This document shows positions 9,771 through 63,356 of a DNA stretch of 64,000 bases, piece after piece. Each line of letters opens with the position of its first letter. Position 1 is the stretch's first letter. Under the pieces are notes generated by a model, which was not told the origin of the DNA, made no database searches, and was given only the letters and a program-made list of their open reading frames with translations. This DNA comes from a virus. The position numbers and the translations under genes are program-made. The stretch lies in the IMG/VR virus record IMGVR_UViG_3300046011_002684, positions 1 through 64,000 of that record; one strand, written 5' to 3'.

Positions 9771-9848
9771 TGGTGGCCCAAGCGGGATTCGAACCCGCGA
9801 CCGTGAGTTTTAGAGACTCGCGCTCTTACCAAGCTGAGCTATTAGGCC
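9771..9848 (-). tRNA. tRNA with CUA anticodon (amber suppressor)
   Basis: Canonical D and T arms, acceptor GGCCUAA/UUGGGCC, A73, loop CUCUAAA. Confidence 0.88.
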
Positions 9849-14427: not shown

Positions 14428-14443
14428 AATTGTCAAAGAGCGT
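14428..14443 (-). promoter_or_regulatory. boxA-like antitermination element
   Basis: ACGCTCTTTGACAATT just downstream of the promoter at 14487; identical 16-mer at 20034-20049. Confidence 0.7.
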
Positions 14444-15125: not shown

Positions 15126-16556
15126 TTAGTAGTTATAACGCTCGACGTTAAGAGCCTTTACCATAACATTGTATGGGGTGTAGTCCTCAAGGTCGTTCGC
15201 AAGAACGCTCTTCATGATAGCTGGGCTGAACCCAGAGATATGAGCAGTACCACGTTCGTCGAAACGAACTGGGGTGTTGCCATCTGCTTTACCATACATG
15301 GAAACGTTCCAGAAGACAATCTTCGGCACATTGTAGCCTGCATCGTTGTACTTACGCTTGATCATCTGCATAGCAGAGTCATCGTACTTAGTGCAAGAGT
15401 CAAACTGCATGTCAGATAGAATCAACAGCATCTGAGGCATGTCACTTTCTGCAACGTTACCCTTAACAGCGATCTTAAGAATCTCGTCAAAAGCAGCGTG
15501 TAGATTGGTGTTCATTTCCCAGTTGGCGCGGCTCATCTGAGTCATCTTCTGAGACAGAGTACCTTTCAGGTGTTCCATCTTAGGCTTACCAGAGAAGGTC
15601 AAGAACAGGTCCTTGAAGTCGCCGGTGTTCTTATCAGCACAGTACAGACCCAGAGAGACTGCAATGTCGATAGGAGAAAGCTGACTTCCGTAAGAGTAAC
15701 CGAGGCTACCCATAGAACCAGATACGTCGACCATAGGCATGATCTTCGCATCGCCGATGTAGTTAGGCAAAGCCTTCCACTGTTCATCAGCAACTGCTGC
15801 ATTACCCTTCACGACAGACTTAACTACGTCATATGGATAAACTGCACCGGCGTTGATCTTGACCTTAGGATCTGCACGTTCAGCAACAGGCTTTTTCAGT
15901 TCGGCAATGTAAGCAGAGTATGCTTCTTTTGCGTTACGACCGAAAGCTTTCTGGTAGCGAGCGGATGCCACGGAAGGAACGTGAGAGAAGTTGATAGCTT
16001 CCCACTCCTTAGCACACATCTTAGACTCAACAACGTTGGTCAAGCCTACGATCAGCTTACGATACTGTTTTGGAGTAAGTTCAAGGAACTTAGTCAGTTC
16101 AACAGCAACAGGACCTTTACGTGGCATCCACTTCGCGCAGAGACCGTCCTGGTTTGCTAGCGCTTCACGAATGAACGCAAACGCCTTACGACGGTTGAGA
16201 GGATCTTTGTAAGTGAACAAATCATCCCAACGGCCAAGCTCTGGAACTTTGTGCATCAGCTTACCAGCAAGAGTTGGGTCGGTGGACTCAAGCGCAGCAA
16301 GCAAGTTACGGAAGGTAGCACGTTCGCCAGCACCTCCGCGAATGTCACGAGCCCAAAGCAGCATACGGACAGTCAGATCAAGGTTCTCAGTCATAGAAGC
16401 AACGAACTGCTTGGAGATATCAGAACCCCGAGCGGAACCAATAACGCCGAACAAGTCAAGCACCTTGGACTTGGAAGTAGCATTAGCCTTCATACCGTTA
16501 GCGGTACGAGCGGGCTTAGAGTAGTTAGCATTTTTAACTGCGTTTACAAAAGACAT
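15126..16556 (-). CDS. Ro60/TROVE-like protein with C-terminal vWA domain (DUF2828-type)
   Basis: RDIRGGAGER, GRWDDL, AKWMPR, VPSVA helical region; MIDAS DVSGSM, TNL and LSDMQFD; IVFWN. Confidence 0.8.
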   Translation of the reverse strand: MSFVNAVKNANYSKPARTANGMKANATSKSKVLDLFGVIGSARGSDISKQFVASMTENLDLTVRMLLWARDIRGGAGERATFRNLLAALESTDPTLAGKLMHKVPELGRWDDLFTYKDPLNRRKAFAFIREALANQDGLCAKWMPRKGPVAVELTKFLELTPKQYRKLIVGLTNVVESKMCAKEWEAINFSHVPSVASARYQKAFGRNAKEAYSAYIAELKKPVAERADPKVKINAGAVYPYDVVKSVVKGNAAVADEQWKALPNYIGDAKIMPMVDVSGSMGSLGYSYGSQLSPIDIAVSLGLYCADKNTGDFKDLFLTFSGKPKMEHLKGTLSQKMTQMSRANWEMNTNLHAAFDEILKIAVKGNVAESDMPQMLLILSDMQFDSCTKYDDSAMQMIKRKYNDAGYNVPKIVFWNVSMYGKADGNTPVRFDERGTAHISGFSPAIMKSVLANDLEDYTPYNVMVKALNVERYNY

Positions 16557-16568
16557 AATATTTCCTTT

Positions 16569-16655
16569 CAGGTTGGGTTTACGGATTCGAACCGCTAAGT
16601 TTGTTTACAAGACAAATTGGGAACCATTCCCGGGTTTAGTTGCTGAAACCAACCT
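16569..16655 (-). ncRNA. Y-like RNA, copy 6, carrying D, anticodon (UGU) and T arms
   Basis: AGGUUGG-UUUC-AGCAA ... GGGA/UCCC, UUUGU-CUUGUAA-ACAAA, GCGG-UUCGAAU-CCGU ... CCAACCU-G; abuts the RBS of the Ro-like gene. Confidence 0.72.
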
Positions 16656-16673
16656 ATGGTTTCATAGTTTAAT

Positions 16674-16750
16674 CAGGATCGCGCCTTTCGGCTTTCCGTT
16701 TGATTACAAGTCAAATGCTCTAACGAGCTCTAAGATGCTGTAACGATCCT
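16674..16750 (-). ncRNA. Y-like RNA, copy 7, carrying D-like and anticodon (UGU) arms
   Basis: AGGAUCG-UUAC-AGCAU ... GCUC/GAGC, UUUGA-CUUGUAA-UCAAA, GCC-GAAA-GGC ... CGAUCCU-G. Confidence 0.7.
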
Positions 16751-16821
16751 ATGTTCATTGTTTCGATAGTAGTAATATAAGCTATTCAGATCGGGTTGTA
16801 AATCCCCTAAATGAATTTTTT

Positions 16822-16895
16822 TGGATGCCCGTCGAGGATTCGAACCGCGATTACTAGGGTCAGAGCCTAGCGTCCTACCGTTAGACGAACGGGCA
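16822..16895 (-). tRNA. tRNA-Gln(CUG)
   Basis: U1:A72, loop CUCUGAC, CCA. Confidence 0.93.
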
Positions 16896-16902
16896 ACGTA
16901 TT

Positions 16903-16979
16903 TGGTGTCCCTGAGAGGATTCGAACCTCCAACTTCGTGGCCCTCAACCACGAGACTCTACCAATTGGTCTACAAGGAC
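16903..16979 (-). tRNA. tRNA-Leu(GAG), short variable arm
   Basis: Loop UUGAGGG, A73, CCA. Confidence 0.88.
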
Positions 16980-16984
16980 ATATT

Positions 16985-17059
16985 TGGAGCGGAGAATGGG
17001 ATTCGAACCCACGGCCATCTCGTTGGCAACGAGAAGCTCTACCACTGAGCTACCTCCGC
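16985..17059 (-). tRNA. tRNA-Gly(GCC)
   Basis: Loop UUGCCAA, U73, CCA. Confidence 0.95.
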
Positions 17060-17064
17060 ATTAT

Positions 17065-17139
17065 TGGTACTGGATAGTGGGATCGAACCACGTCCACCTC
17101 AGTCACAGTGAGGGATGCAACCATTACACCTTATCCAGC
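17065..17139 (-). tRNA. tRNA-His(GUG), no G-1, A73
   Basis: Loop CUGUGAC, G1:U72, A73, preceded by T. Confidence 0.88.
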
Positions 17140-17146
17140 ATTATCT

Positions 17147-17222
17147 TGGTGCTCCCGGTAGGACTCTAACCTACAACCATTGGTTTCGAAGACCAGCGCT
17201 CTTACAATTGAGCTACGGAAGC
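17147..17222 (-). tRNA. tRNA-Arg(UCG)
   Basis: Loop CUUCGAA, variant T loop UUAGAGU, CCA. Confidence 0.88.
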
Positions 17223-17369
17223 GTAATTCCCGGGCCATCTCACAATTGGGACTCTTACCCCTGCATCCGAGCTAAGACTCAGACCGTGTTACCCGATACG
17301 CCGAGTAGCCCTGTGGCGTATGCAGTATTCTCATCATAGCAAATGTCGACCTTCGCTACAACGTTTTAT

Positions 17370-17442
17370 TGGCGCTCCTGGAATGAGTTGAACATTCGTA
17401 AGCAGGCTTCGTAGACCCGCCACCGGGTCCGCCGGCAGAAGC
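17370..17442 (-). tRNA. tRNA-Arg(ACG), non-canonical D arm
   Basis: Loop CUACGAA, 6-bp anticodon stem, G73, CCA. Confidence 0.75.
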
Positions 17443-17443
17443 A

Positions 17444-17749
17444 TTATGGCATATAAAGACCTTCGATTTCTGGATCAGTGATCATTTCAGGCATATCATC
17501 GATCCAAACATCGATATTGATATTGTGAACATGATGCATAAAGTGTCGCTTAGGGCGAAGACCAGTACCAAAGCAATTCTCTGCACCGATCACTCGGCCG
17601 ATCGTCATCTTTGGATCATCCATGTGCTGAGTTCCACGAGCGGATACGCAGTAGACTTTATGTCCACGGTTCAACGCTTCTTGTGCGAACCAGTTCCAGA
17701 GAAGTGGATCCTTGGTATAGGTATCATCGTAATCAATTGAGATATTCAT
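17444..17749 (-). CDS. HAD-superfamily phosphatase
   Basis: ISIDYDDT (DxDxT), VSAR, K, WIDD; GGAG RBS at the trimmed start. Confidence 0.75.
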   Translation of the reverse strand: MNISIDYDDTYTKDPLLWNWFAQEALNRGHKVYCVSARGTQHMDDPKMTIGRVIGAENCFGTGLRPKRHFMHHVHNINIDVWIDDMPEMITDPEIEGLYMP

Positions 17750-17807
17750 CTTTGTCTCCTTTACCGGATCACTATAATCTAAACTTGGCCACATGTAAAC
17801 CTCTAAA

Positions 17808-17881
17808 TGGTGCTGCTAGGAAGAATCGAACTTCCGTTTCACCCGTACCAAGGGCGTGTATTACCATTGTACTATAGCAGC
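17808..17881 (-). tRNA. tRNA-Thr(GGU)
   Basis: Loop UUGGUAC, CCA. Confidence 0.93.
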
Positions 17882-17886
17882 GTTGT

Positions 17887-17961
17887 TGGTGCCTCCACTA
17901 AGAGTCGAACTTAGACCTTCCCCATGTCACGGGATCGAGCAAACCGTTACACCATGGAGGC
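17887..17961 (-). tRNA. tRNA-Val(GAC)
   Basis: Loop GUGACAU, A73, CCA. Confidence 0.85.
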
Positions 17962-17967
17962 ATTGAT

Positions 17968-18044
17968 TGGTATCCCCAGCGGGTGTCGATCCCGCTTCTT
18001 CGCCTTGAAAGGGCGATGATCTAGCCAACGTAATCTATGGGGAC
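17968..18044 (-). tRNA. tRNA-Glu(UUC)
   Basis: Loop CUUUCAA, CCA. Confidence 0.9.
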
Positions 18045-18051
18045 GTTGTAT

Positions 18052-18143
18052 TGGTGGGAGTGTGTTGAATCGAACAACTTGCCTCTTCAGGAACGGATTT
18101 ACAGTCCGCTGCTAGCACCAGCATAGCCTTATTTGACACTCCC
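18052..18143 (-). tRNA. tRNA-Tyr(GUA) with extended acceptor-D connector
   Basis: Loop CUGUAAA, long variable arm, A73, CCA; about 7 extra nt after position 7. Confidence 0.82.
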
Positions 18144-18148
18144 AATTT

Positions 18149-18223
18149 TGGTTGTAGTGGGTGGGATTGAACCACCGACCTATCCCTTATCAGGGGATTG
18201 CTCTACCACTGAGCTACACCACA
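18149..18223 (-). tRNA. tRNA-Ile(GAU)
   Basis: Loop CUGAUAA, CCA. Confidence 0.93.
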
Positions 18224-18271
18224 AAAATTCAGCCGGAAATTCTTTTAATGTGCAGCCGGATCTGTCACAAT

Positions 18272-18347
18272 TGGTGCGGATGAAGAGAATCGAACTCCTG
18301 ACACCATGCTCTTCAGGCACGTGCTCTACCAACTGAGCTACATCCGC
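18272..18347 (-). tRNA. tRNA-Phe(GAA)
   Basis: Loop CUGAAGA, CCA. Confidence 0.95.
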
Positions 18348-18351
18348 GTAT

Positions 18352-18429
18352 TGGCTGTCCTAAGAGGACTCGAACCTCTCTCCATCCTGGTTAACAGCCA
18401 GGTGCCGTCACCTGGACGACTCTAGGACA
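18352..18429 (-). tRNA. tRNA-Asn(GUU), second copy
   Basis: Loop CUGUUAA, G73, CCA; divergent D arm. Confidence 0.88.
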
Positions 18430-18435
18430 AATATT

Positions 18436-18513
18436 TGGTGAACCGGGTGAGACTCGAACTCACGTTGTCGCGGATTAAGAGCCCGCCGCTAAAACCACCT
18501 CAGCTACCGGTCC
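18436..18513 (-). tRNA. tRNA-Lys(CUU)
   Basis: Loop CUCUUAA, CCA. Confidence 0.92.
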
Positions 18514-18515
18514 GT

Positions 18516-18605
18516 ATTACTTAGAAGATATACTGATGAGGAATCGAACCTCCCACAGTCGCGCCCTGTGCCTGGTTTGCCAGGTCAGTATATCATCAAA
18601 GTAAT
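18516..18605 (-). ncRNA. tRNA-shaped RNA with extended closing stem and no CCA
   Basis: GAUAUACUGA/UCAGUAUAUC; CCUGG-CAAA-CCAGG; CACAG-GGCGCGA-CUGUG; GAGG-UUCGAUU-CCUC. Confidence 0.6.
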
Positions 18606-18680
18606 GGTGGATCCGGTCGGACTCGAACCGACGTACTCCGATTAAAAGTCGGGTGCTAAAACCACCTCAGCTACGGATCC
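18605..18680 (-). tRNA. tRNA-Lys(UUU)
   Basis: Loop CUUUUAA, CCA. Confidence 0.93.
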
Positions 18681-18813
18681 AATCTCGAAGCGCCATTCTC
18701 TCATCACGGCGTTCCGCTTTCTTAGTCTTCCCGTGTGCGCCAGAAGGACGTTTGGAAAGATGAAGGACGAATGGGTTTCGTGCCTTCGGTAGTTCCTTAT
18801 GTTTTCGTTTCAT
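18667..18813 (-). CDS. 48-aa basic protein MKRKHKELPKARNPFVLHLSKRPSGAHGKTKKAERRDERMALRDWIRS; stop codon inside tRNA-Lys
   Basis: AAGGA RBS; open frame read manually; below the ORF-track cutoff. Confidence 0.65.
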   Translation of the reverse strand: MKRKHKELPKARNPFVLHLSKRPSGAHGKTKKAERRDERMALRDWIRS

Positions 18814-18822
18814 TTCGTTTCC

Positions 18823-18945
18823 TTAGTTAGCATATTGAGCGTTGAAAAGAGCTGCCTGATAGGTGCCACCGTAAACAACTTTGTCATCAGACAGACGACG
18901 TCCGAACCATTTGCCGCTTACGTTCCAGAAGGTCCAACCTTGCAT
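18823..18945 (-). CDS. 40-aa early protein MQGWTFWNVSGKWFGRRLSDDKVVYGGTYQAALFNAQYAN
   Basis: AAGGA RBS directly behind the early promoter at 18997. Confidence 0.6.
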   Translation of the reverse strand: MQGWTFWNVSGKWFGRRLSDDKVVYGGTYQAALFNAQYAN

Positions 18946-19033
18946 GTTCTTTCCTTTCGTTCCTTATAGTAGTAATATAAGGTATAGGTTATGGTTTGTA
19001 AACCCCCTATTTTCATTTTGTTCGAATTATTTT

Positions 19034-19105
19034 TGGTGGTGCCAGATGGACTCGAACCATCTCTTCGGGCTTATGAGACCCAAGTCGGAACCGTTCCGTG
19101 TCACC
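19034..19105 (-). tRNA. tRNA with CAU anticodon (Met or Ile2), non-canonical D arm
   Basis: Loop CUCAUAA, 6-bp anticodon stem, A73, CCA. Confidence 0.72.
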
Positions 19106-19110
19106 AATAT

Positions 19111-19192
19111 TGGAGGTGTGTGTCAGAATCGAACTGACTACTTTCGTGCTATGGATTTGCAATCCATCCCCTTACCATCCGGGCCACACACC
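19111..19192 (-). tRNA. tRNA-Cys(GCA) with long variable arm
   Basis: Loop UUGCAAA, U73, CCA, variable AC-GAAA-GU hairpin. Confidence 0.88.
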
Positions 19193-19198
19193 GTTATT

Positions 19199-19273
19199 TG
19201 GCGAAGGTGGTAGGAATCGAACCCACTACGCGCGGTTTTGGAGACCGCCGCTCTACCATTGAGCTACACCGAC
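19199..19273 (-). tRNA. tRNA-Trp(CCA)
   Basis: Loop CUCCAAA, G73; two mismatches in the acceptor stem. Confidence 0.85.
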
Positions 19274-19279
19274 ATATTT

Positions 19280-19357
19280 TGGTCTGGGTGAGAGGATTTG
19301 AACCTCCGACTTCTTGCTTCCAAGGCAAGCACTCTACGCAGACTGAGCTACACCCAG
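19280..19357 (-). tRNA. tRNA-Pro(UGG), third copy
   Basis: C1:G72, A73, loop CUUGGAA. Confidence 0.9.
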
Positions 19358-19365
19358 ATGATTAT

Positions 19366-19440
19366 TGGTTGGGAAGGGTGGATTCGAACCACCGGCCTGC
19401 TGATTCAAAGTCAGTTATTCTGCCGCTGAACTACTTCCCA
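19366..19440 (-). tRNA. tRNA-Gln(UUG)
   Basis: U1:A72, loop CUUUGAA, CCA. Confidence 0.93.
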
Positions 19441-19500
19441 ACAGTAGCAGTAATCTGCTACATATTTTACTTTATCTCTTTTATTCTCATAAATAAAATT

Positions 19501-19998
19501 ATGAAAAAGTTACTCCTATGTTTTTTGTTATGTGGAGGTTGCGCTAGTCAAGATGTTCAAGACTCTTATTCAGTAGGTACTACATTATCTACTGCCAGTG
19601 CAATGGTAGGTCTTCATGAGAAAAGGGACCGAGTTGAACTAACAAGATTGATCGGGGTTGACCCAGTACGTACTGAATGGTGCGCAGCCTTCGTGAATTC
19701 CATTTTAAATCTAAATGGCATACCTGGTTCAGAAGTTGTAAGTAGGCATCCACTTACCGCTAAGAGTTTTATCTATTGGGGTAGCTTTGCTATAACTCCT
19801 GAGTTCGGTGATGTTGTTGTATTTCCAAGAGGTAATCAAGGTTGGCAAGGACATGTGGGATTCTACATCACTACAGTAAAGCAGGATGGAATCGACCATT
19901 ATGTTATCCTTGGTGGTAACCAAGATAACCGTGTTTCATATGATCTTTATCCAGCGTCCAAAGCGATTGCTATCAGACGCTGGATAATAGATCCATAA
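19501..19998 (+). CDS. TIGR02594-type (NlpC/P60/CHAP-like) peptidoglycan hydrolase, probable lipoprotein
   Basis: WCAAFVN, GDVVVF, QGHVGFY, ILGGNQ; signal MKKLLLCFLLCGGC; CATAAATA late-promoter variant upstream. Confidence 0.85.
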   Translation: MKKLLLCFLLCGGCASQDVQDSYSVGTTLSTASAMVGLHEKRDRVELTRLIGVDPVRTEWCAAFVNSILNLNGIPGSEVVSRHPLTAKSFIYWGSFAITPEFGDVVVFPRGNQGWQGHVGFYITTVKQDGIDHYVILGGNQDNRVSYDLYPASKAIAIRRWIIDP

Positions 19999-20033
19999 TG
20001 GGGTCATCGGACGAATCCTATCCCATACAGATA

Positions 20034-20049
20034 AATTGTCAAAGAGCGT
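20034..20049 (-). promoter_or_regulatory. boxA-like antitermination element
   Basis: ACGCTCTTTGACAATT, identical to 14428-14443. Confidence 0.7.
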
Positions 20050-20081
20050 GGGAGATTGATGTAATCGCTTCGTCCCGAAAT

Positions 20082-20114
20082 AAAAAAACCCTCCAGATCT
20101 TTCGATCGGAGGGT
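20082..20114 (-). terminator. Intrinsic terminator of the candidate attenuator
   Basis: ACCCUCC-GAUC-GAAA-GAUC-U-GGAGGGU followed by a U run. Confidence 0.85.
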
Positions 20115-20138
20115 CTTGGAATTCGATGTTAACTTGCG

Positions 20139-20252
20139 TTAACCGTTTCCGTAACCCTCCATGTATCCCATAATCCATTCACCACACACATGGAGTCGAT
20201 TGCATGGGAATGCATTCGAAATCTGGCGTTGATATGTAAACGGTTTATTCAT
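20139..20252 (-). promoter_or_regulatory. 37-codon leader peptide MNKPFTYQRQISNAFPCNRLHVCGEWIMGYMEGYGNG containing an antiterminator strand
   Basis: Lies between the promoter at 20309 and the terminator; internal GGAGGGU (20154-20160) duplicates the 3' terminator strand. Confidence 0.65.
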
Positions 20253-20345
20253 GGAAGTTTGTTATTCCTAGTTGGTGTTCTATTAGTATATATCATTCTA
20301 GGTTGCTTTGTAAACCCCCAAAATGAACTTTTTTCAAAAAAGATT

Positions 20346-20421
20346 TGGTGCTCCCAGTAGGACTCGAACCTACGATCAAGACGTTATGAGCGTCCGGCTT
20401 TAGCCGCTAAGCTATAGGAGC
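20346..20421 (-). tRNA. tRNA with CAU anticodon (Ile2 or elongator Met)
   Basis: Loop CUCAUAA, CCA. Confidence 0.9.
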
Positions 20422-20424
20422 AAT

Positions 20425-20515
20425 TGGTAGAAGTGGGTGGATTCGAACCACCTCAAAGGCGCTAATCTGGCGCAAAGAGTTTATAAGACTCCTCTGACTA
20501 CCAAGTCTCACTTCC
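20425..20515 (-). tRNA. tRNA-Ile(UAU), short D arm and long variable arm
   Basis: Loop CUUAUAA, canonical T arm, A73, CCA. Confidence 0.72.
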
Positions 20516-20516
20516 A

Positions 20517-20669
20517 TTATTTGTTATTCAAGGTTTTGATTCTTTCTTTAATCCAGTTTACAACCGTTAGCCATTCTTCATCTTGATATGTAATATCTAC
20601 TGTTTCAAGATTACTGAGTGCGATCATAAGACCGTGTTGTTCAGAATAGTCTAGACTGGATTTAGCCAT
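20517..20669 (-). CDS. 50-aa hypothetical protein
   Basis: GAGG RBS; fills the gap between two tRNAs. Confidence 0.55.
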   Translation of the reverse strand: MAKSSLDYSEQHGLMIALSNLETVDITYQDEEWLTVVNWIKERIKTLNNK

Positions 20670-20684
20670 TACAACCTCTAGATT

Positions 20685-20767
20685 TGGTACGGGCACCCGG
20701 ACTCGAACCGGGATGCATTAAGCGAGAGATTTTAAGTCTCTTGTGGCTACCGTTTCACCATGCCCGC
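20685..20767 (-). tRNA. tRNA-Leu(UAA)
   Basis: Loop CUUAAAA, long variable arm, CCA. Confidence 0.93.
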
Positions 20768-20773
20768 ATAGAT

Positions 20774-20849
<76 letters not shown>

Positions 20850-20857
20850 ATTATCTC

Positions 20858-21325
20858 TTATTTGACAAAATCTACTTTATACTCTTTTCCATCGATTGTA
20901 AACATCAAAGTGGAGTGTGAGTAAATTTTTCTTGGTTCATCTATATATGTGACTTTATCGTAACAGCTTTTTTCTTCACGGTAACCAACGATCACTTGCT
21001 CGGTCTTCGGTTTGCTACCTTGATCTGCTCCAATAATACCACCTACAATAGCACCAGCAGCTGCACCATTATCTTTGTCAGTAATTGCTTTACCAGCTAC
21101 ACCACCGATGATCATACCAAGAAGCGCACCACCAGCAGCATTTCCGGAGCGGGAGCGGGTTTCATATACAGGTACTTCGATCACTTCACAGTAAAGATCG
21201 ACTACTTCCTTTGTTACATACTCAGTAACATAGTTGTCTTTTACTTTTGCGTTTACCTTCTCAGCATTAGCCGGCAAGGAAAAGCTGATCAAGATAGTCG
21301 TCGCTATAGTAAGGGTCTTCTTCAT
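20858..21325 (-). CDS. exported glycine-zipper protein
   Basis: Signal peptide; GALLGMIIGGVAG...GAAAGAIVGGIIG. Confidence 0.8.
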   Translation of the reverse strand: MKKTLTIATTILISFSLPANAEKVNAKVKDNYVTEYVTKEVVDLYCEVIEVPVYETRSRSGNAAGGALLGMIIGGVAGKAITDKDNGAAAGAIVGGIIGADQGSKPKTEQVIVGYREEKSCYDKVTYIDEPRKIYSHSTLMFTIDGKEYKVDFVK

Positions 21326-21548
21326 GGGGCATCTCCAAGCCAGTTTCGGGTGTCTTCATTTCACATGAATTGAAGTACTCTTCCCAGTACGTATTTACCA
21401 TTTTTTCTGTGGTGATATCTTCGATCGAACTGAATTTGCCAAAGGCAAACTTCATGATTTCACCTGCAACTTCCATCTCGAAGTCAGACATGATAGAGTT
21501 GGTCATAGTATTGTATCCCGTCCTTTGAATCACTCTAATATTATACAC
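21267..21548 (-). CDS. hypothetical acidic protein
   Basis: Behind the early promoter at 21563; true start probably the internal MTNS. Confidence 0.55.
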   Translation of the reverse strand: MYNIRVIQRTGYNTMTNSIMSDFEMEVAGEIMKFAFGKFSSIEDITTEKMVNTYWEEYFNSCEMKTPETGLEMPHEEDPYYSDDYLDQLFLAG

Positions 21549-21572
21549 ACGAGGTAGCGGGTTGTAAACCCC

Positions 21573-22787
21573 CTATTTCGAGAAAATATCGGTAAACTTT
21601 GAAGTGATTTCAGATATATATCCTTCGTCCGCAATAAGTGGTGCGCATAGATACAGATTTGGTATTTCTGCTAATTTTCCGCTGAGTCCAAATTTATGTT
21701 GATTTCTTGCTTGAAATTTATCTGTCAGATCCATACTCATCATAACCCCGGCTGTTCTATAGGAAAGAATTAAACCAGTCTCTAAGAAATGATTACCCAT
21801 TTCATTAAGCCATCCGTTAATCTTAGGAACATTATCAAGTATTTTATCCCTTTCATAAATCTTTTTAACTGCTTTAAGTGCCCCAATACCGCCCATATAC
21901 GGACAATAGGTGTGTCCGTATGAAAAATTATTCTTTATAATATCTTTTACTTTTTGGGTACAAACTGTTGCACCTAAAGGAGCATGCCCAGCTGTGATGC
22001 CTTTTCCTAGACATGAAATATCAGGTTGCACGCCACCCCCATGGGCTTTATGGGTGTGTATAGTTCCCATTTTACCAAATCCAGCAGAAACATCGTCGAT
22101 AATCATTAATATATCATACTCGTTACATATAGAACGAATTTTTTTCCAGAAATTTTCACTGAAAGGGGCTGTTTGGAACCAAGGAACTGGATCAAATACT
22201 ATAGCACCTATATAACGAGATTCTTTTTCTATTTGTTCTAAAAGATCGGATATTACCCTAGATTCTTCCCCCTCTCTTTCATTTAAATATCTCCAGGCGG
22301 GGCCTTTAATGAATATTGATCGTTCGCTATTCCAATATTGGTAATTTCTTATACCCATACTTTTAGTTAGATAAGAAGTGCCGTGCCATGTACCAGAAAA
22401 AGATATAATTTTCTTCTTTTCAAATTTACCTAGAGATTGCCAGTAAGAATCATTCATAGATATAGCACATTCTACTGCACCGGTGCCGGTAACAGACCAA
22501 GCTATACCAGACCAGTCTCCAGACTCACAGATCCAAGAAGAAACTTCTTCAATGCTATCAGTGGTCTGTGCCCTAGCGGTTTGACAGCGAGAAACAGAAA
22601 TTAACTCATTATAGATAGAATCTATAATTTCTTTATTACTATAACCTAAAGTAAAGGCTATAGAATGTGTATAATCTAAAAGTTTTCCGTGTTTTTCCGT
22701 ATAGAGGTAATGACCTTCGGTCTTATTAATATACGTAAATTCTTCTATACGTTTATTCAAAAACGGTAATATTGCATATTTAGACAT
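21573..22787 (-). CDS. class III PLP-dependent aminotransferase
   Basis: WHGTS, IIDDVSAGFGKMG, PDISCLGKGITAG, GHTY. Confidence 0.88.
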   Translation of the reverse strand: MSKYAILPFLNKRIEEFTYINKTEGHYLYTEKHGKLLDYTHSIAFTLGYSNKEIIDSIYNELISVSRCQTARAQTTDSIEEVSSWICESGDWSGIAWSVTGTGAVECAISMNDSYWQSLGKFEKKKIISFSGTWHGTSYLTKSMGIRNYQYWNSERSIFIKGPAWRYLNEREGEESRVISDLLEQIEKESRYIGAIVFDPVPWFQTAPFSENFWKKIRSICNEYDILMIIDDVSAGFGKMGTIHTHKAHGGGVQPDISCLGKGITAGHAPLGATVCTQKVKDIIKNNFSYGHTYCPYMGGIGALKAVKKIYERDKILDNVPKINGWLNEMGNHFLETGLILSYRTAGVMMSMDLTDKFQARNQHKFGLSGKLAEIPNLYLCAPLIADEGYISEITSKFTDIFSK

Positions 22788-62538: not shown

Positions 62539-62868
62539 TTAGAATTCGAAACGAACACCAACCTGAGCATCTTCATAAGCCATATCTGCGTCTGCCTGAA
62601 CAGCACCGAAGACGTGGACAGCATTGCTTAGACCATAAGCAGCTTCAACACTTACGCCATCGAAGGTAAGACCGTCGGTGTTAGCGGTAGCATAGAGACG
62701 TGGTGCAACGGAAAAATCGCCGAATGCAAGATCAGGACCCGCTTCAAGTGCAACTGCTTCATTCTCTACTGAATAAGCAGCTTCACCGGAAACGCCGAGA
62801 TAAGGGTTAGCGAAAGCTGAAGTGGCGAGGGTTGCAGCAGCTACAGTAGAAAGAAGAAATTTCATCAT
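62539..62868 (-). CDS. small outer-membrane beta-barrel-like protein
   Basis: Signal peptide ...SAFA, alternating beta strands, terminal GVRFEF. Confidence 0.7.
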   Translation of the reverse strand: MMKFLLSTVAAATLATSAFANPYLGVSGEAAYSVENEAVALEAGPDLAFGDFSVAPRLYATANTDGLTFDGVSVEAAYGLSNAVHVFGAVQADADMAYEDAQVGVRFEF

Positions 62869-62896
62869 TTTATATTTCCTTTGAGATTAGAGTTAA

Positions 62897-63235
62897 GTGG
62901 TCCGTTCTGTTTCTAGGTGGAACCATACCCAAAGTACTTAAGCAGCTAGTGCGTAAGCCTTAGGAGCAAAGTTATCGTTTGCATTTGTAGGTTTGGCTGA
63001 ATAACGTAGGCCAACACGGTAATCTCCACATCTTTTCAACACCTGTCGATCCTATTTCGAGCCCATCAGAAACATGCTAAGTTTACGACCATTACGCCAA
63101 GACCGGTGGGGTACCAAGCCTGTTGAGAACCTATATTAGGTAGTCACTTTATCCTGCATCCCTTAGCATGTTTGTGGTGGACCCGCTGGGTACTGCCCCC
63201 AGGTCCAGAATGTCTATCGTCTGCTTCAACGATTA
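62897..63235 (-). ncRNA. ssrA: two-piece (circularly permuted) tmRNA; tag ANDNFAPKAYALAA
   Basis: T arm GGGGGCAGUACCC, CGGGUCC-A-CCA ending 63175; 110-nt stem-closed intervening segment; GGGCUCGAAAUAGGAUCGAC from 63064 (G3:U70); tag ORF 62938-62982; outer ends approximate. Confidence 0.92.
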
Positions 63236-63356
63236 CAGATACTATTTAACCATATCTACTAGTGATTGTACATATCTAATTCCTATATTCCGGTCTGACG
63301 TGATAATTATGATACGCCCGTCAGAGTCGTAGAATATATGCCTATAGTTTTCGTAT

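What the first reader, a model, noticed from the sequence alone, without database searches (positions are those of the whole stretch)
20034..20320. Candidate pan-codon attenuator gating tRNA genes
Seen, in order on the minus strand: early promoter (TTTACA at 20309), a 37-codon ORF using 19 of 20 amino acids (no Asp) and 28 different codons, a terminator ACCCUCC...GGAGGGU-U-run, then boxA and the tRNA genes from 19440 down. The leader carries a second GGAGGGU (20154-20160) four codons before its stop, able to capture ACCCUCC. Established: in amino-acid attenuators, stalling in the leader frees the antiterminator. Inference: instead of a run of one codon this leader samples almost every tRNA, so loss of nearly any host tRNA (starvation or anticodon nuclease) would stall the ribosome upstream, allow antitermination and induce the phage tRNAs. 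Caveats: the AGGA lies about 13 nt from the ATG, and further promoters at 18997, 17794 and 16797 lie downstream of this gate.
Basis: partly seen in the sequence, partly recalled or inferred. Interest (0 to 1): 0.85.

Follow-up and report, generated by a model that had tools for sequence, protein, structure and literature searches.

The report
All-amino-acid leader attenuator before phage tRNAs
An uncultured phage and its distant relatives keep a tiny translated test gene that uses nearly every amino acid, wired to a switchable transcription stop at the head of their tRNA genes, so it probably tunes tRNA synthesis to how well ribosomes are translating.

Summary
On the minus strand lie a promoter, a 37-codon ORF (19 of 20 amino acids), a second GGAGGGT four codons before the stop, a strong terminator and a boxA-type leader.

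The module recurs in 45 IMG/VR loci as 24 distinct sequences, always upstream of same-strand tRNA genes.
- **Translated, not a protein:** the ORF stays open while the peptide evolves almost neutrally.
- **Switch:** the best partner of the terminator's 5' arm lies in the last codons in 24 of 24 and tracks its own terminator (swap test P=5e-5). A fixed-column covariation test was not significant.
- **Amino-acid coverage:** it exceeds even random draws from a uniform 20-letter alphabet, and only in the ORF frame.

Best reading (0.6): a ribosome-mediated attenuator with a "census" leader. Which stalls trigger readthrough is unresolved, and there is no expression evidence. Five literature searches found no published account. 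The scan's own unchecked notes report similar modules on other phage DNA.

The parts
20285..20314 (-). Sigma-70-like promoter: TTTACA (20314-20309), 18-nt spacer, TATACT (20290-20285). The transcript start is expected near 20278.
   Evidence: 10 of 12 matches; sequence. By my reading, most homologous modules also have a promoter-like pair of hexamers at the same place.
20253..20269 (-). Translation-initiation region: AGGA (20269-20266), then a 13-nt spacer ending in CTTCC (20257-20253). CTTCC can pair with the AGGA or with segment 2, so it is a candidate segment 1.
   Evidence: My reading: AGGA-like motif roughly 9-14 nt before the ATG in most modules. Full-length folds pair segment 2 with this spacer in 14 of 24. 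Swap test TIR x segment 2: P=0.004 for 22 sequences, 0.012 for 16 representatives.
20139..20252 (-). Leader ORF of 37 codons plus TAA: 19 of 20 amino acids, 28 distinct codons.
   Evidence: ORF open in 22 of 22 distinct homologues, against 2 of 44 alternative frames. Neutral-like substitution pattern. Frame-specific amino-acid coverage. No Pfam or PHROG family.
20186..20195 (-). Window-specific candidate segment 1 inside the ORF (codons 20-23). It forms a hairpin of about 10 bp with 20166-20155, which overlaps segment 2.
   Evidence: MFE of the full leader, -63.2 kcal/mol.
20154..20160 (-). Segment 2: GGAGGGT, a copy of the terminator's 3' arm, complementary to ACCCTCC (20114-20108). This is the 5' strand of the antiterminator.
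   Evidence: Best duplex partner of the terminator's 5' arm, -15.8 kcal/mol, shuffle P=0.004. The 2:3 helix forms in the fold of the nascent RNA. Same position in 24 of 24 homologues.
20128..20143 (-). Small hairpin GTTAAC-GCAA-GTTAAC with the TAA stop codon in its 5' arm. It is enclosed by the antiterminator helix.
   Evidence: -5.6 kcal/mol, z=-2.2. All three stop-codon bases are paired in a local hairpin in 15 of 24 homologues.
20082..20115 (-). Intrinsic terminator: 5' arm 20115-20104, loop GAAA 20103-20100, 3' arm 20099-20087, seven T's 20088-20082.
   Evidence: -18.9 kcal/mol. Family covariation: 89.6% of cells paired, 35 cells changed on both sides, 0 of 500 shuffles as high.
20032..20073 (-). 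Conserved 42-nt leader with a boxA-like core (20048-20036). It starts 8 nt after the T-run, and no promoter was found in between.
   Evidence: 87-91% identical in loci whose CHAP protein is only about 50% identical. Pattern scan: 24 stretches, 19 of them leaders by my reading. nhmmer found it within 300 nt behind the terminator in 18 of 24 modules. No minus-strand promoter is listed between 20285 and 20042.
19501..19998 (+). Convergent CHAP-domain lipoprotein gene, lying between the boxA leader and the next tRNAs. Readthrough transcripts would be antisense to it.
   Evidence: In relatives the same gene sits at other places relative to the module.
19034..19440 (-). First tRNA block behind the gate: Gln(UUG), Pro(UGG), Trp(CCA), Cys(GCA) and a CAU tRNA. 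It ends before the next promoter at 19002-18974.
   Evidence: No promoter scoring 9 of 12 or better is listed on the minus strand between 20015 and 19002, apart from the TTGACA that overlaps boxA.

Best explanation
This is a ribosome-mediated (leader-peptide) transcription attenuator at the head of the phage's tRNA island. A promoter drives a roughly 200-nt leader RNA that carries a 37-codon ORF. The last codons contain a copy (segment 2) of the terminator's 3' arm. If a ribosome translates smoothly to the stop codon it covers segment 2, the terminator hairpin forms and transcription ends at the T-run. If the ribosome is held up earlier, segment 2 pairs with the terminator's 5' arm and encloses the small stop-codon hairpin. 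The terminator then cannot form, and RNA polymerase runs on into the boxA-type leader and the tRNA genes. The boxA-type leader is inferred to recruit host rrn-type antitermination factors. The ORF is selected to contain nearly every amino acid once, rather than a run of one codon. The gate is therefore inferred to report general decoding capacity, meaning a shortage of almost any charged tRNA, and to feed back on phage tRNA supply. Shown by sequence analysis: the conserved anatomy, ORF maintenance, frame-specific amino-acid coverage, conserved alternative pairing and synteny with tRNA genes. Inferred: that translation controls termination, its polarity, which codons are sensing-competent, the boxA function and the biological trigger.
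For: (1) An nhmmer profile of 10 seed modules found the module in 45 loci, which are 24 distinct sequences. Among 16 clade representatives the median peptide identity is 30%. (2) All 24 have an ORF of 20-40 codons and a terminator of -15.6 to -25.7 kcal/mol. By my reading most also have promoter-like hexamers and an AGGA-like motif roughly 9-14 nt before the ATG. (3) The ORF is open in 22 of 22 distinct sequences, while only 2 of 44 alternative frames are open, giving about 0.11 expected per leader. (4) In 11 close pairs, 74 differing codons are nonsynonymous and 18 synonymous, with nucleotide differences of 42/43/39 at codon positions 1/2/3. The frame is kept, not the peptide. (5) The best complement of the terminator's 5' arm ends 3-13 nt before the end of the stop codon in 24 of 24, with shuffle P<=0.05 in 16 of 24. 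The 2:3 helix forms in 22 of 24 folds of the RNA lacking the 3' arm. (6) Alignment-free swap test: each segment 2 fits its own terminator arm better than other modules' arms. The residual is -2.04 kcal/mol for 22 sequences (0 of 20,000 permutations as low) and -2.30 for 16 representatives (P=5e-5). Controls using the ORF middle or upstream DNA are not significant. (7) Amino-acid coverage: all 24 leaders lie above the null mean, and 5 contain all 20 amino acids in 34-40 residues. The 16 representatives sum to 289 distinct residues. The nulls give 239.1+-6.8 for windows of real proteins, 246.2 for random draws from the leaders' own composition, 256.9+-5.5 for a perfectly uniform alphabet and 249.1 for residues reshuffled among leaders; none of 20,000 simulations reached 289 in any of the four. 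The two other frames of the same DNA give 242 and 240. (8) Same-strand tRNA genes lie within 1.5 kb in 24 of 24, and a tRNA starts 8-12 nt after the terminator in 9 of 24. (9) In the window, constrained folds behave as the model requires. With a ribosome at the stop the 5' arm is free; with a ribosome stalled at codon 10 and RNA made up to the loop, 2:3 forms.
Against: There is no expression, 3'-end or ribosome-occupancy evidence. The metatranscriptome contigs laid on the region came mostly from relatives' tRNA genes. The fixed-column covariation test for 2:3 is not significant: 74.2% paired against 72.3% in shuffles, 120 of 500 shuffles as high, and a register slid by one does about as well. 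The AGGA lies 13 nt from the ATG, longer than the 4-9 nt usual in this window, so initiation may be weak. In the window the full-length MFE has a 1:2 hairpin inside the ORF. With the complete RNA and a ribosome blocked at codon 10, the fold still forms 1:2 plus the terminator, so not every codon need be able to trigger readthrough. In most relatives, by my reading, a promoter lies between the terminator (or the first one to three tRNAs) and the boxA leader, so much tRNA transcription may bypass the gate. In the window the readthrough RNA must cross 500 nt antisense to a CHAP gene before the first tRNA. Leader composition is not flat: Met and Cys are enriched 3.1-fold and Asp is at 0.34.
Confidence: 0.6

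Rival explanations
1. It is an attenuator, but a selective one. The leader mainly senses the few tRNAs encoded directly behind it (CAU tRNA, Cys, Trp, Tyr, Gln), and the broad amino-acid coverage is secondary.
For: Met and Cys are 3.1-fold enriched, and Trp, Tyr and Gln 1.3-1.4-fold. These are the five amino acids whose tRNA genes most often lie within 500 nt behind the terminator. Spearman rho is 0.76, P=9e-5, with 68 of 711 leader residues matched against 29.1 expected. Leaders followed by a given tRNA carry more of that residue for Met, Trp, Tyr, Gln, Pro and Thr; the single module with tRNA-Thr within 500 nt has 7 Thr.
Against: Composition alone cannot give the observed coverage: 289 observed against 246.2 for random draws from the leaders' own composition. 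Cys and Phe show no module-by-module association. Rarity of an amino acid could drive both variables. There are no tandem regulatory codons.
Confidence: 0.15
2. It is a stand-alone short transcript with its own terminator, either a small RNA or a micro-protein gene. It has no regulatory readthrough, and the internal copy of the terminator arm serves RNA stability or another fold.
For: A promoter plus a strong terminator gives a discrete RNA of about 200 nt. Many relatives, by my reading, have a separate promoter for what follows. The column-wise covariation for 2:3 is not significant.
Against: The peptide evolves neutrally and matches no Pfam or PHROG family, which argues against a functional protein. 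The ORF is nevertheless kept open, and its frame alone shows extreme amino-acid coverage, which argues against a pure non-coding RNA. Rfam gave no match in 20034-20320 at E<=1. In the window and in L079 the scans found no promoter between the T-run and the boxA leader, and I saw none in L003, L094 or L148.
Confidence: 0.12
3. It is a general coupling or ribosome-availability sensor. The signal would be host translation shut-off, ribosome-targeting toxins or antibiotics, not tRNA shortage, by analogy with antibiotic-sensing leader peptides.
For: There is no codon run. Segment 2 pairs with the initiation region in 14 of 24 full-length folds (swap P=0.004 and 0.012), so ribosome loading itself could be read out.
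Against: This does not explain why each amino acid should appear at least once, nor the fixed position in front of tRNA genes.
Confidence: 0.08
4. In this window the hairpin is chiefly a two-way terminator that shields the convergent CHAP gene from the tRNA-strand transcripts and ends the CHAP transcript.
For: The CHAP gene stops at 19998, 84 nt from the hairpin, on the opposite strand.
Against: The module is conserved in relatives where the CHAP gene lies elsewhere or upstream and divergent. On the plus strand the hairpin is not followed by a T-run.
Confidence: 0.04

Closest known systems
Leader-peptide attenuators of amino-acid biosynthesis operons (trp, his, leu, phe; the multivalent thr and ilv leaders) of Proteobacteria (textbook knowledge, recalled)
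   Same: A short translated ORF in the 5' leader; a terminator (3:4) and a mutually exclusive antiterminator (2:3); the stop codon placed so that a terminating ribosome masks segment 2; a candidate 1:2 hairpin in the window.
   Different: There is no run of regulatory codons; nearly all 20 amino acids appear instead. The genes behind it are tRNA genes and a boxA leader, not biosynthetic enzymes. It is phage-encoded. In many relatives segment 1 appears to be the initiation region rather than an internal ORF segment. There is no Rfam match.
Antibiotic-sensing leader peptides that control resistance genes by ribosome stalling (erm and cat leaders; vmlR, paper PMC9226507 seen as a search listing and abstract start only)
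   Same: Ribosome stalling in a short leader ORF without an amino-acid codon run switches alternative RNA structures.
   Different: Those sense a drug bound to the ribosome through a specific nascent peptide. Here the peptide sequence is not conserved, while amino-acid coverage is.
rrn-type boxA antitermination (NusB/S10 loading site). The motif as quoted in the scan's note e1-6114504 is 'GCUCUUUAACA-like'; the mechanism is recalled.
   Same: The leader behind the terminator has a core that differs from that quoted motif at one position. It is strongly conserved and precedes long untranslated RNA genes.
   Different: It is on a phage, directly behind an attenuator. Factor binding was not tested, and the similarity was not tested against a bacterial rrn leader with a tool.
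Cryptic long tRNA operon of Anabaena induced under translational stress (PMC8421152) and its repressor TrcR (PMC10272220); both seen only as search listing and abstract start
   Same: An accessory tRNA array whose expression is tied to impaired translation.
   Different: By the 2023 title, control is by a protein repressor (TrcR), not by a leader peptide and terminator. It is bacterial, on a megaplasmid, not phage.
The scan's own earlier notes on other phage genomes (e1-6051197, e1-5618024, e1-4038560 and others; AI notes)
   Same: A leader ORF plus a terminator/antiterminator in front of phage tRNA arrays. One note describes a leader with all 20 amino acids; others describe leaders that mirror the downstream tRNAs.
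   Different: They concern different DNA. By the sequence look-up, no look-alike of this module occurs outside this genome. I did not examine those loci.

Membership tests
Ribosome-mediated leader-peptide transcription attenuators | Short ORF with a start codon and ribosome-binding site in the 5' leader, maintained by selection | tested here: met
   37 codons in the window. Open in 22 of 22 homologues against 2 of 44 alternative frames. AGGA is present, but at 13 nt it is further from the ATG than usual.
Ribosome-mediated leader-peptide transcription attenuators | Intrinsic terminator between the leader ORF and the downstream genes | tested here: met
   -18.9 kcal/mol plus seven T's. Covariation: 0 of 500 shuffles as high.
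Ribosome-mediated leader-peptide transcription attenuators | Antiterminator helix mutually exclusive with the terminator | tested here: met
   Complement of the 5' arm found in 24 of 24. It forms in 22 of 24 folds without the 3' arm. Swap test P=5e-5 with null controls. The fixed-column covariation test was not significant.
Ribosome-mediated leader-peptide transcription attenuators | Stop codon placed so that a terminating ribosome masks segment 2 but not the terminator | tested here: met
   Segment 2 ends 3-13 nt before the end of the stop codon in 24 of 24. The terminator's 5' arm starts 21-35 nt after the stop in the 17 modules printed.
Ribosome-mediated leader-peptide transcription attenuators | Segment 1 (anti-antiterminator or pause hairpin) that a stalled ribosome can mask | tested here: inconclusive
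   The window has a 10-bp 1:2 hairpin inside the ORF. In relatives segment 2 pairs with the initiation region in 14 of 24 folds. Swap P=0.004 and 0.012.
Ribosome-mediated leader-peptide transcription attenuators | Run or cluster of codons for the regulating amino acid | tested here: not met
   There is no run. The window leader has 19 of 20 amino acids, and the family has more coverage than uniform sampling gives.
Ribosome-mediated leader-peptide transcription attenuators | Readthrough depends on leader translation and on charged tRNA supply | not testable with these tools
   Needs reporters, Term-seq or ribosome profiling. The RNA contigs were uninformative.
Rfam leader and riboswitch families (Trp, His, Leu and Thr leaders; T-box) | Match to a curated covariance model | tested here: not met
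   cmscan of 16000-22000 at E<=1 found only tRNA-type and chance matches, none in 20034-20320.
rrn-type boxA antitermination site | boxA consensus in the transcribed leader before untranslated RNA genes | tested here: inconclusive
   The core at 20048-20036 differs at one position from the motif quoted in note e1-6114504. It is conserved in relatives. It was not compared with a bacterial rrn leader by any tool.
rrn-type boxA antitermination site | Binding of NusB/S10 and processive antitermination | not testable with these tools
   Biochemical.

The most novel reading that the evidence does not exclude
The leader is a deliberate census of the genetic code. Each amino acid is placed at least once in a translated test frame, so that loss of any one host tRNA stalls the ribosome. 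Such loss could come from starvation, an anticodon-nuclease defence or a codon-usage mismatch. The stall opens the gate into a boxA-protected array of phage tRNAs, and the new tRNAs then close the gate again. This would be a self-correcting counter-defence circuit for decoding capacity.
Probability: 0.4. Interest if true: 0.9.

Novelty: new variant of a known kind. Interest (0 to 1): 0.8.

Why it matters
Phage tRNA genes are usually discussed as constitutive helpers for codon usage, or as spares against tRNA-cleaving defences. How their expression is controlled is largely unknown. A conserved leader-peptide switch at the head of tRNA arrays would mean that phages measure decoding capacity and adjust tRNA supply. 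It would extend classical attenuation from amino-acid genes to tRNA genes. It would also replace the codon run with an all-amino-acid test frame. The statistical signature, coverage above uniform sampling in one frame only, gives sequence-only evidence that a tiny ORF is translated, and it could be used to find such sensors elsewhere. The model makes sharp predictions, for example that the window's leader, which lacks Asp, should be blind to Asp limitation. My five literature searches found no published account.

Tried and rejected
- **Cultured-phage records:** blastn ('distant' mode) of the window region found only tRNA matches. Two relatives' modules found nothing. No isolate or host can be named.
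- **Genome-contig scan:** I took these for chance matches and did not examine them.
- **Second leader pattern:** it added only 3 new loci.
- **Rfam:** no family matched the leader.
- **Pfam and PHROGs:** no family matched the 37-aa peptide.
- **Simple terminator scan:** it does not list this terminator in the window or in L079, I think because of the bulge. I relied on RNAfold instead.
- **Fixed-register covariation of the antiterminator:** on the MAFFT alignment A1 it is not above the shuffles. I then used an alignment-free swap test with controls.
- **Stop-hairpin test:** my first test was badly coded (3 of 24). It was redone by local folding: the hairpins are weak and their z-scores modest.
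- **Sequencing runs:** 16 runs hold small shares of the stretch, 0.05-0.23. Contigs of four metatranscriptomes were laid on it. They cover mainly tRNA genes and come largely from relatives. They say nothing on expression, ends or habitat, and parts without cover are not evidence.
- **Drift simulation:** it shows that relatives keep more amino-acid types than random substitution predicts. Single comparisons are weak (P from 0.000 to 0.70), so I do not lean on it.
- **Functional micro-protein:** considered and rejected because substitutions look neutral.
- **Chance ORF:** considered and rejected.
- **Other gates in the window:** only one nhmmer match to the module was found in the window.
Full report
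**What is there.** The window is part of a 90-kb IMG/VR virus record estimated at 51% complete. It carries 33 tRNA genes and a tmRNA, all on the minus strand.

On the minus strand the region reads in this order:
- promoter TTTACA (20314-20309), 18-nt spacer, TATACT (20290-20285);
- AGGA (20269-20266);
- ATG at 20252, opening a 37-codon ORF that ends with TAA at 20141-20139;
- GGAGGGT at 20160-20154;
- a small hairpin, GTTAAC-GCAA-GTTAAC, that holds the stop codon;
- a terminator with arms 20115-20104 and 20099-20087, seven T's, -18.9 kcal/mol;
- only 8 nt later, a 42-nt conserved leader (20073-20032) with a boxA-like core.

Any readthrough RNA therefore runs antisense through it before reaching tRNA-Gln, Pro, Trp, Cys and a CAU tRNA (19440-19034). 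The next promoter is at 19002. Between 20285 and 19002 the scan lists no minus-strand promoter except a TTGACA that is part of the boxA core.

**Relatives.** No cultured phage record matches the region beyond tRNAs, and Rfam has no family for it.
- Loci fetched through the CHAP protein showed that distant contigs, with CHAP only about 50% identical, keep the terminator and boxA-leader stretch at 87-91% identity. They also keep the whole arrangement.
- Scans of viral contigs with leader patterns, followed by an nhmmer profile built from ten seed modules, gave the module in 45 loci, which are 24 distinct sequences.
- I chose 16 clade representatives. Their median pairwise peptide identity is 30% and the maximum is 56%.

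**The ORF is kept, the peptide is not.**
- All 24 modules have an ATG-started ORF of 20-40 codons.
- Over the same spans the other two frames are open in only 2 of 44 cases, with 93 stops in 1,466 codons. An open frame is therefore expected in about 11% of leaders by chance.
- In 11 comparisons of close relatives, 74 differing codons are nonsynonymous and 18 synonymous. Nucleotide differences fall evenly on codon positions, 42/43/39. These pairs overlap and are not independent.
- The conserved GGAGGG is read in different frames in different relatives (my reading).
- Neither Pfam nor PHROGs knows the peptide.

This is the pattern of a frame whose translation matters and whose product does not.

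**The switch.**
- The terminator is well supported by covariation: 89.6% of cells paired, 35 cells changed on both sides, 0 of 500 shuffles as high.
- The strongest partner of the terminator's 5' arm anywhere upstream lies in the last codons of the ORF in 24 of 24 modules. It ends 3-13 nt before the end of the stop codon. Shuffle P is <=0.05 in 16 of 24 and 0.07-0.14 in the other 8.
- When the RNA is folded without the 3' arm, this 2:3 helix forms in 22 of 24; L033 and L104 are the exceptions.
- A column-by-column count on the MAFFT alignment does not beat the shuffles: 74.2% against 72.3%, with 120 of 500 as high. The G-run and C-run content makes that control weak, and the register drifts.
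- An alignment-free swap test is clear. After removing row and column effects, each segment 2 binds its own arm better than other modules' arms. The residual is -2.04 kcal/mol for 22 sequences (0 of 20,000 permutations as low) and -2.30 for 16 representatives (P=5e-5). The terminator itself, as positive control, gives -3.9 and -4.1.
- Three negative controls give nothing: ORF middle against the arm, upstream DNA against the arm, and ORF middle against segment 2.
- A candidate segment 1 is less certain. In the window a 10-bp hairpin forms between codons 20-23 and segment 2. In 14 of 24 full-length folds segment 2 pairs with the spacer just before the ATG, with swap P=0.004 and 0.012.
- Constrained folds of the window RNA behave as the classical model needs. 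A ribosome at the stop leaves the 5' arm free. A ribosome stalled at codon 10, with RNA made up to the loop, gives the antiterminator. With the complete RNA, however, the same stall still allows 1:2 plus the terminator.

**Amino-acid coverage.**
- The window's 19 of 20 has P=0.031 against windows of long ORFs. All 24 leaders lie above the null mean, and five contain all 20 amino acids in 34-40 residues.
- Summed over the 16 representatives there are 289 distinct residues. The nulls give 239.1+-6.8 for windows of real proteins (z=7.4), 246.2+-5.7 for random draws from the leaders' own pooled composition, 249.1+-5.1 for residues reshuffled among the leaders, and 256.9+-5.5 for a perfectly uniform alphabet. 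None of 20,000 simulations reached 289 in any of the four.
- The other two frames of the same DNA give 242 and 240, below the uniform expectation. The ORF frame is the highest in 16 of 16.
- Distinct codons are also in excess, 406 against 369+-7.8.

Composition therefore cannot explain the coverage. Within a leader, repeats are avoided, and only in the frame that would be translated. The caveat is that the representatives are homologous. The neutral-like divergence and a drift simulation argue against simple inheritance, but independence is not strict.

**What is gated.**
- Same-strand tRNA genes lie within 1.5 kb behind the terminator in 24 of 24 modules.
- A tRNA starts 8-12 nt after the terminator in 9 of 24: Cys six times, a CAU tRNA three times.
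- The boxA-type leader is found within 300 nt in 18 of 24.
- By my reading, a promoter follows the terminator or the first tRNAs in most relatives. In the window, L003, L079, L094 and L148 none is seen before the boxA leader; the scan tool confirmed this only for the window and L079.

The gate is thus the only visible entry to the boxA leader in this phage, but probably an additive input in many relatives.

Leader composition also mirrors the nearest tRNAs. Met and Cys are 3.1-fold enriched, and Trp, Tyr and Gln 1.3-1.4-fold. These are the five whose tRNA genes most often lie within 500 nt (rho=0.76, P=9e-5). The scan's earlier notes on other phages suggested this test.

**Reading.** The best-supported explanation is a ribosome-mediated attenuator whose leader has been shaped to sample almost every amino acid. 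The boxA leader behind it probably protects the untranslated RNA from premature termination. That boxA step rests on recalled knowledge of rrn operons and on the motif quoted, and was not tested here. The polarity (smooth translation terminates, stalling reads through) follows from the geometry. It is inferred, not shown. Which codons can trigger, whether the trigger is starvation, a defence nuclease or codon mismatch, and whether the terminated leader RNA has a role of its own are all open.

**Literature and earlier notes.** Five searches found no account of leader-peptide control of phage tRNA genes, or of an all-amino-acid leader. The nearest items are the Anabaena stress-induced tRNA operon and its repressor (PMC8421152, PMC10272220), which I saw only as search listing and abstract start. 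Supplements were closed. The scan's own unchecked notes describe like modules on other phage genomes, one with all 20 amino acids. No look-alike of this sequence was indexed outside this genome.

**Verdict.** It is a new variant of a known kind. Interest is 0.8.

Noticed in passing
window 19501-19998 (+): The only plus-strand gene in this stretch is a CHAP-domain lipoprotein with a lipobox-like N-terminus. It is convergent with the tRNA strand and sits inside what in relatives is the boxA-leader / Y-like RNA region. In relatives the same gene lies at other positions relative to the module, which suggests a mobile insertion.
   Followed up: partly
relatives L083, L086, L090, L092, L093, L104 (output); window 14428-14443: Behind the boxA leader, relatives carry a long stem made of a conserved 15-mer and its complement. 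The window is said to have a second copy of the boxA element at 14428, preceded by a promoter and with no leader-ORF module.
   Followed up: no
L111, L134, L110, L135 (output), directly after the terminator: These loci have tRNA-like sequences with a CAU anticodon loop that ARAGORN did not call in the downstream scan.
   Followed up: no
window 19192 joined to 20078 in a contig of run X5; 20076 joined to 20143 in a contig of run X2: Metatranscriptome contigs of relatives join tRNA-Cys directly to the end of the terminator, skipping the boxA leader, the CHAP gene and three tRNAs. In another run the terminator stretch is replaced. Gene order behind the gate is therefore fluid among close relatives.
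   Followed up: no
window 20265-20253 and the same place in relatives: The AGGA-like motif before the leader's ATG can pair with a pyrimidine-rich motif just before the ATG, forming a small hairpin. The same motif can pair with segment 2. This may set a deliberately weak or switchable initiation.
   Followed up: partly
window 20517-20696 (-): A 59-aa ORF lies between tRNA-Leu and tRNA-Ile, upstream of the module's promoter. It has no convincing family match (Pfam E=0.09; PHROG E=0.087).
   Followed up: no
L090, L161, L092, L135 (output): The gene upstream of the module's promoter ends with the same conserved stretch in several distant relatives. The module therefore has a conserved left neighbour in part of the family.
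   Followed up: no
window 9771-9848 and 62847-63270 (-): ARAGORN calls a tRNA with a CUA anticodon, labelled Pyl and so a possible amber suppressor, and a permuted tmRNA with tag peptide ANDNFAPKAYALAA.
   Followed up: no
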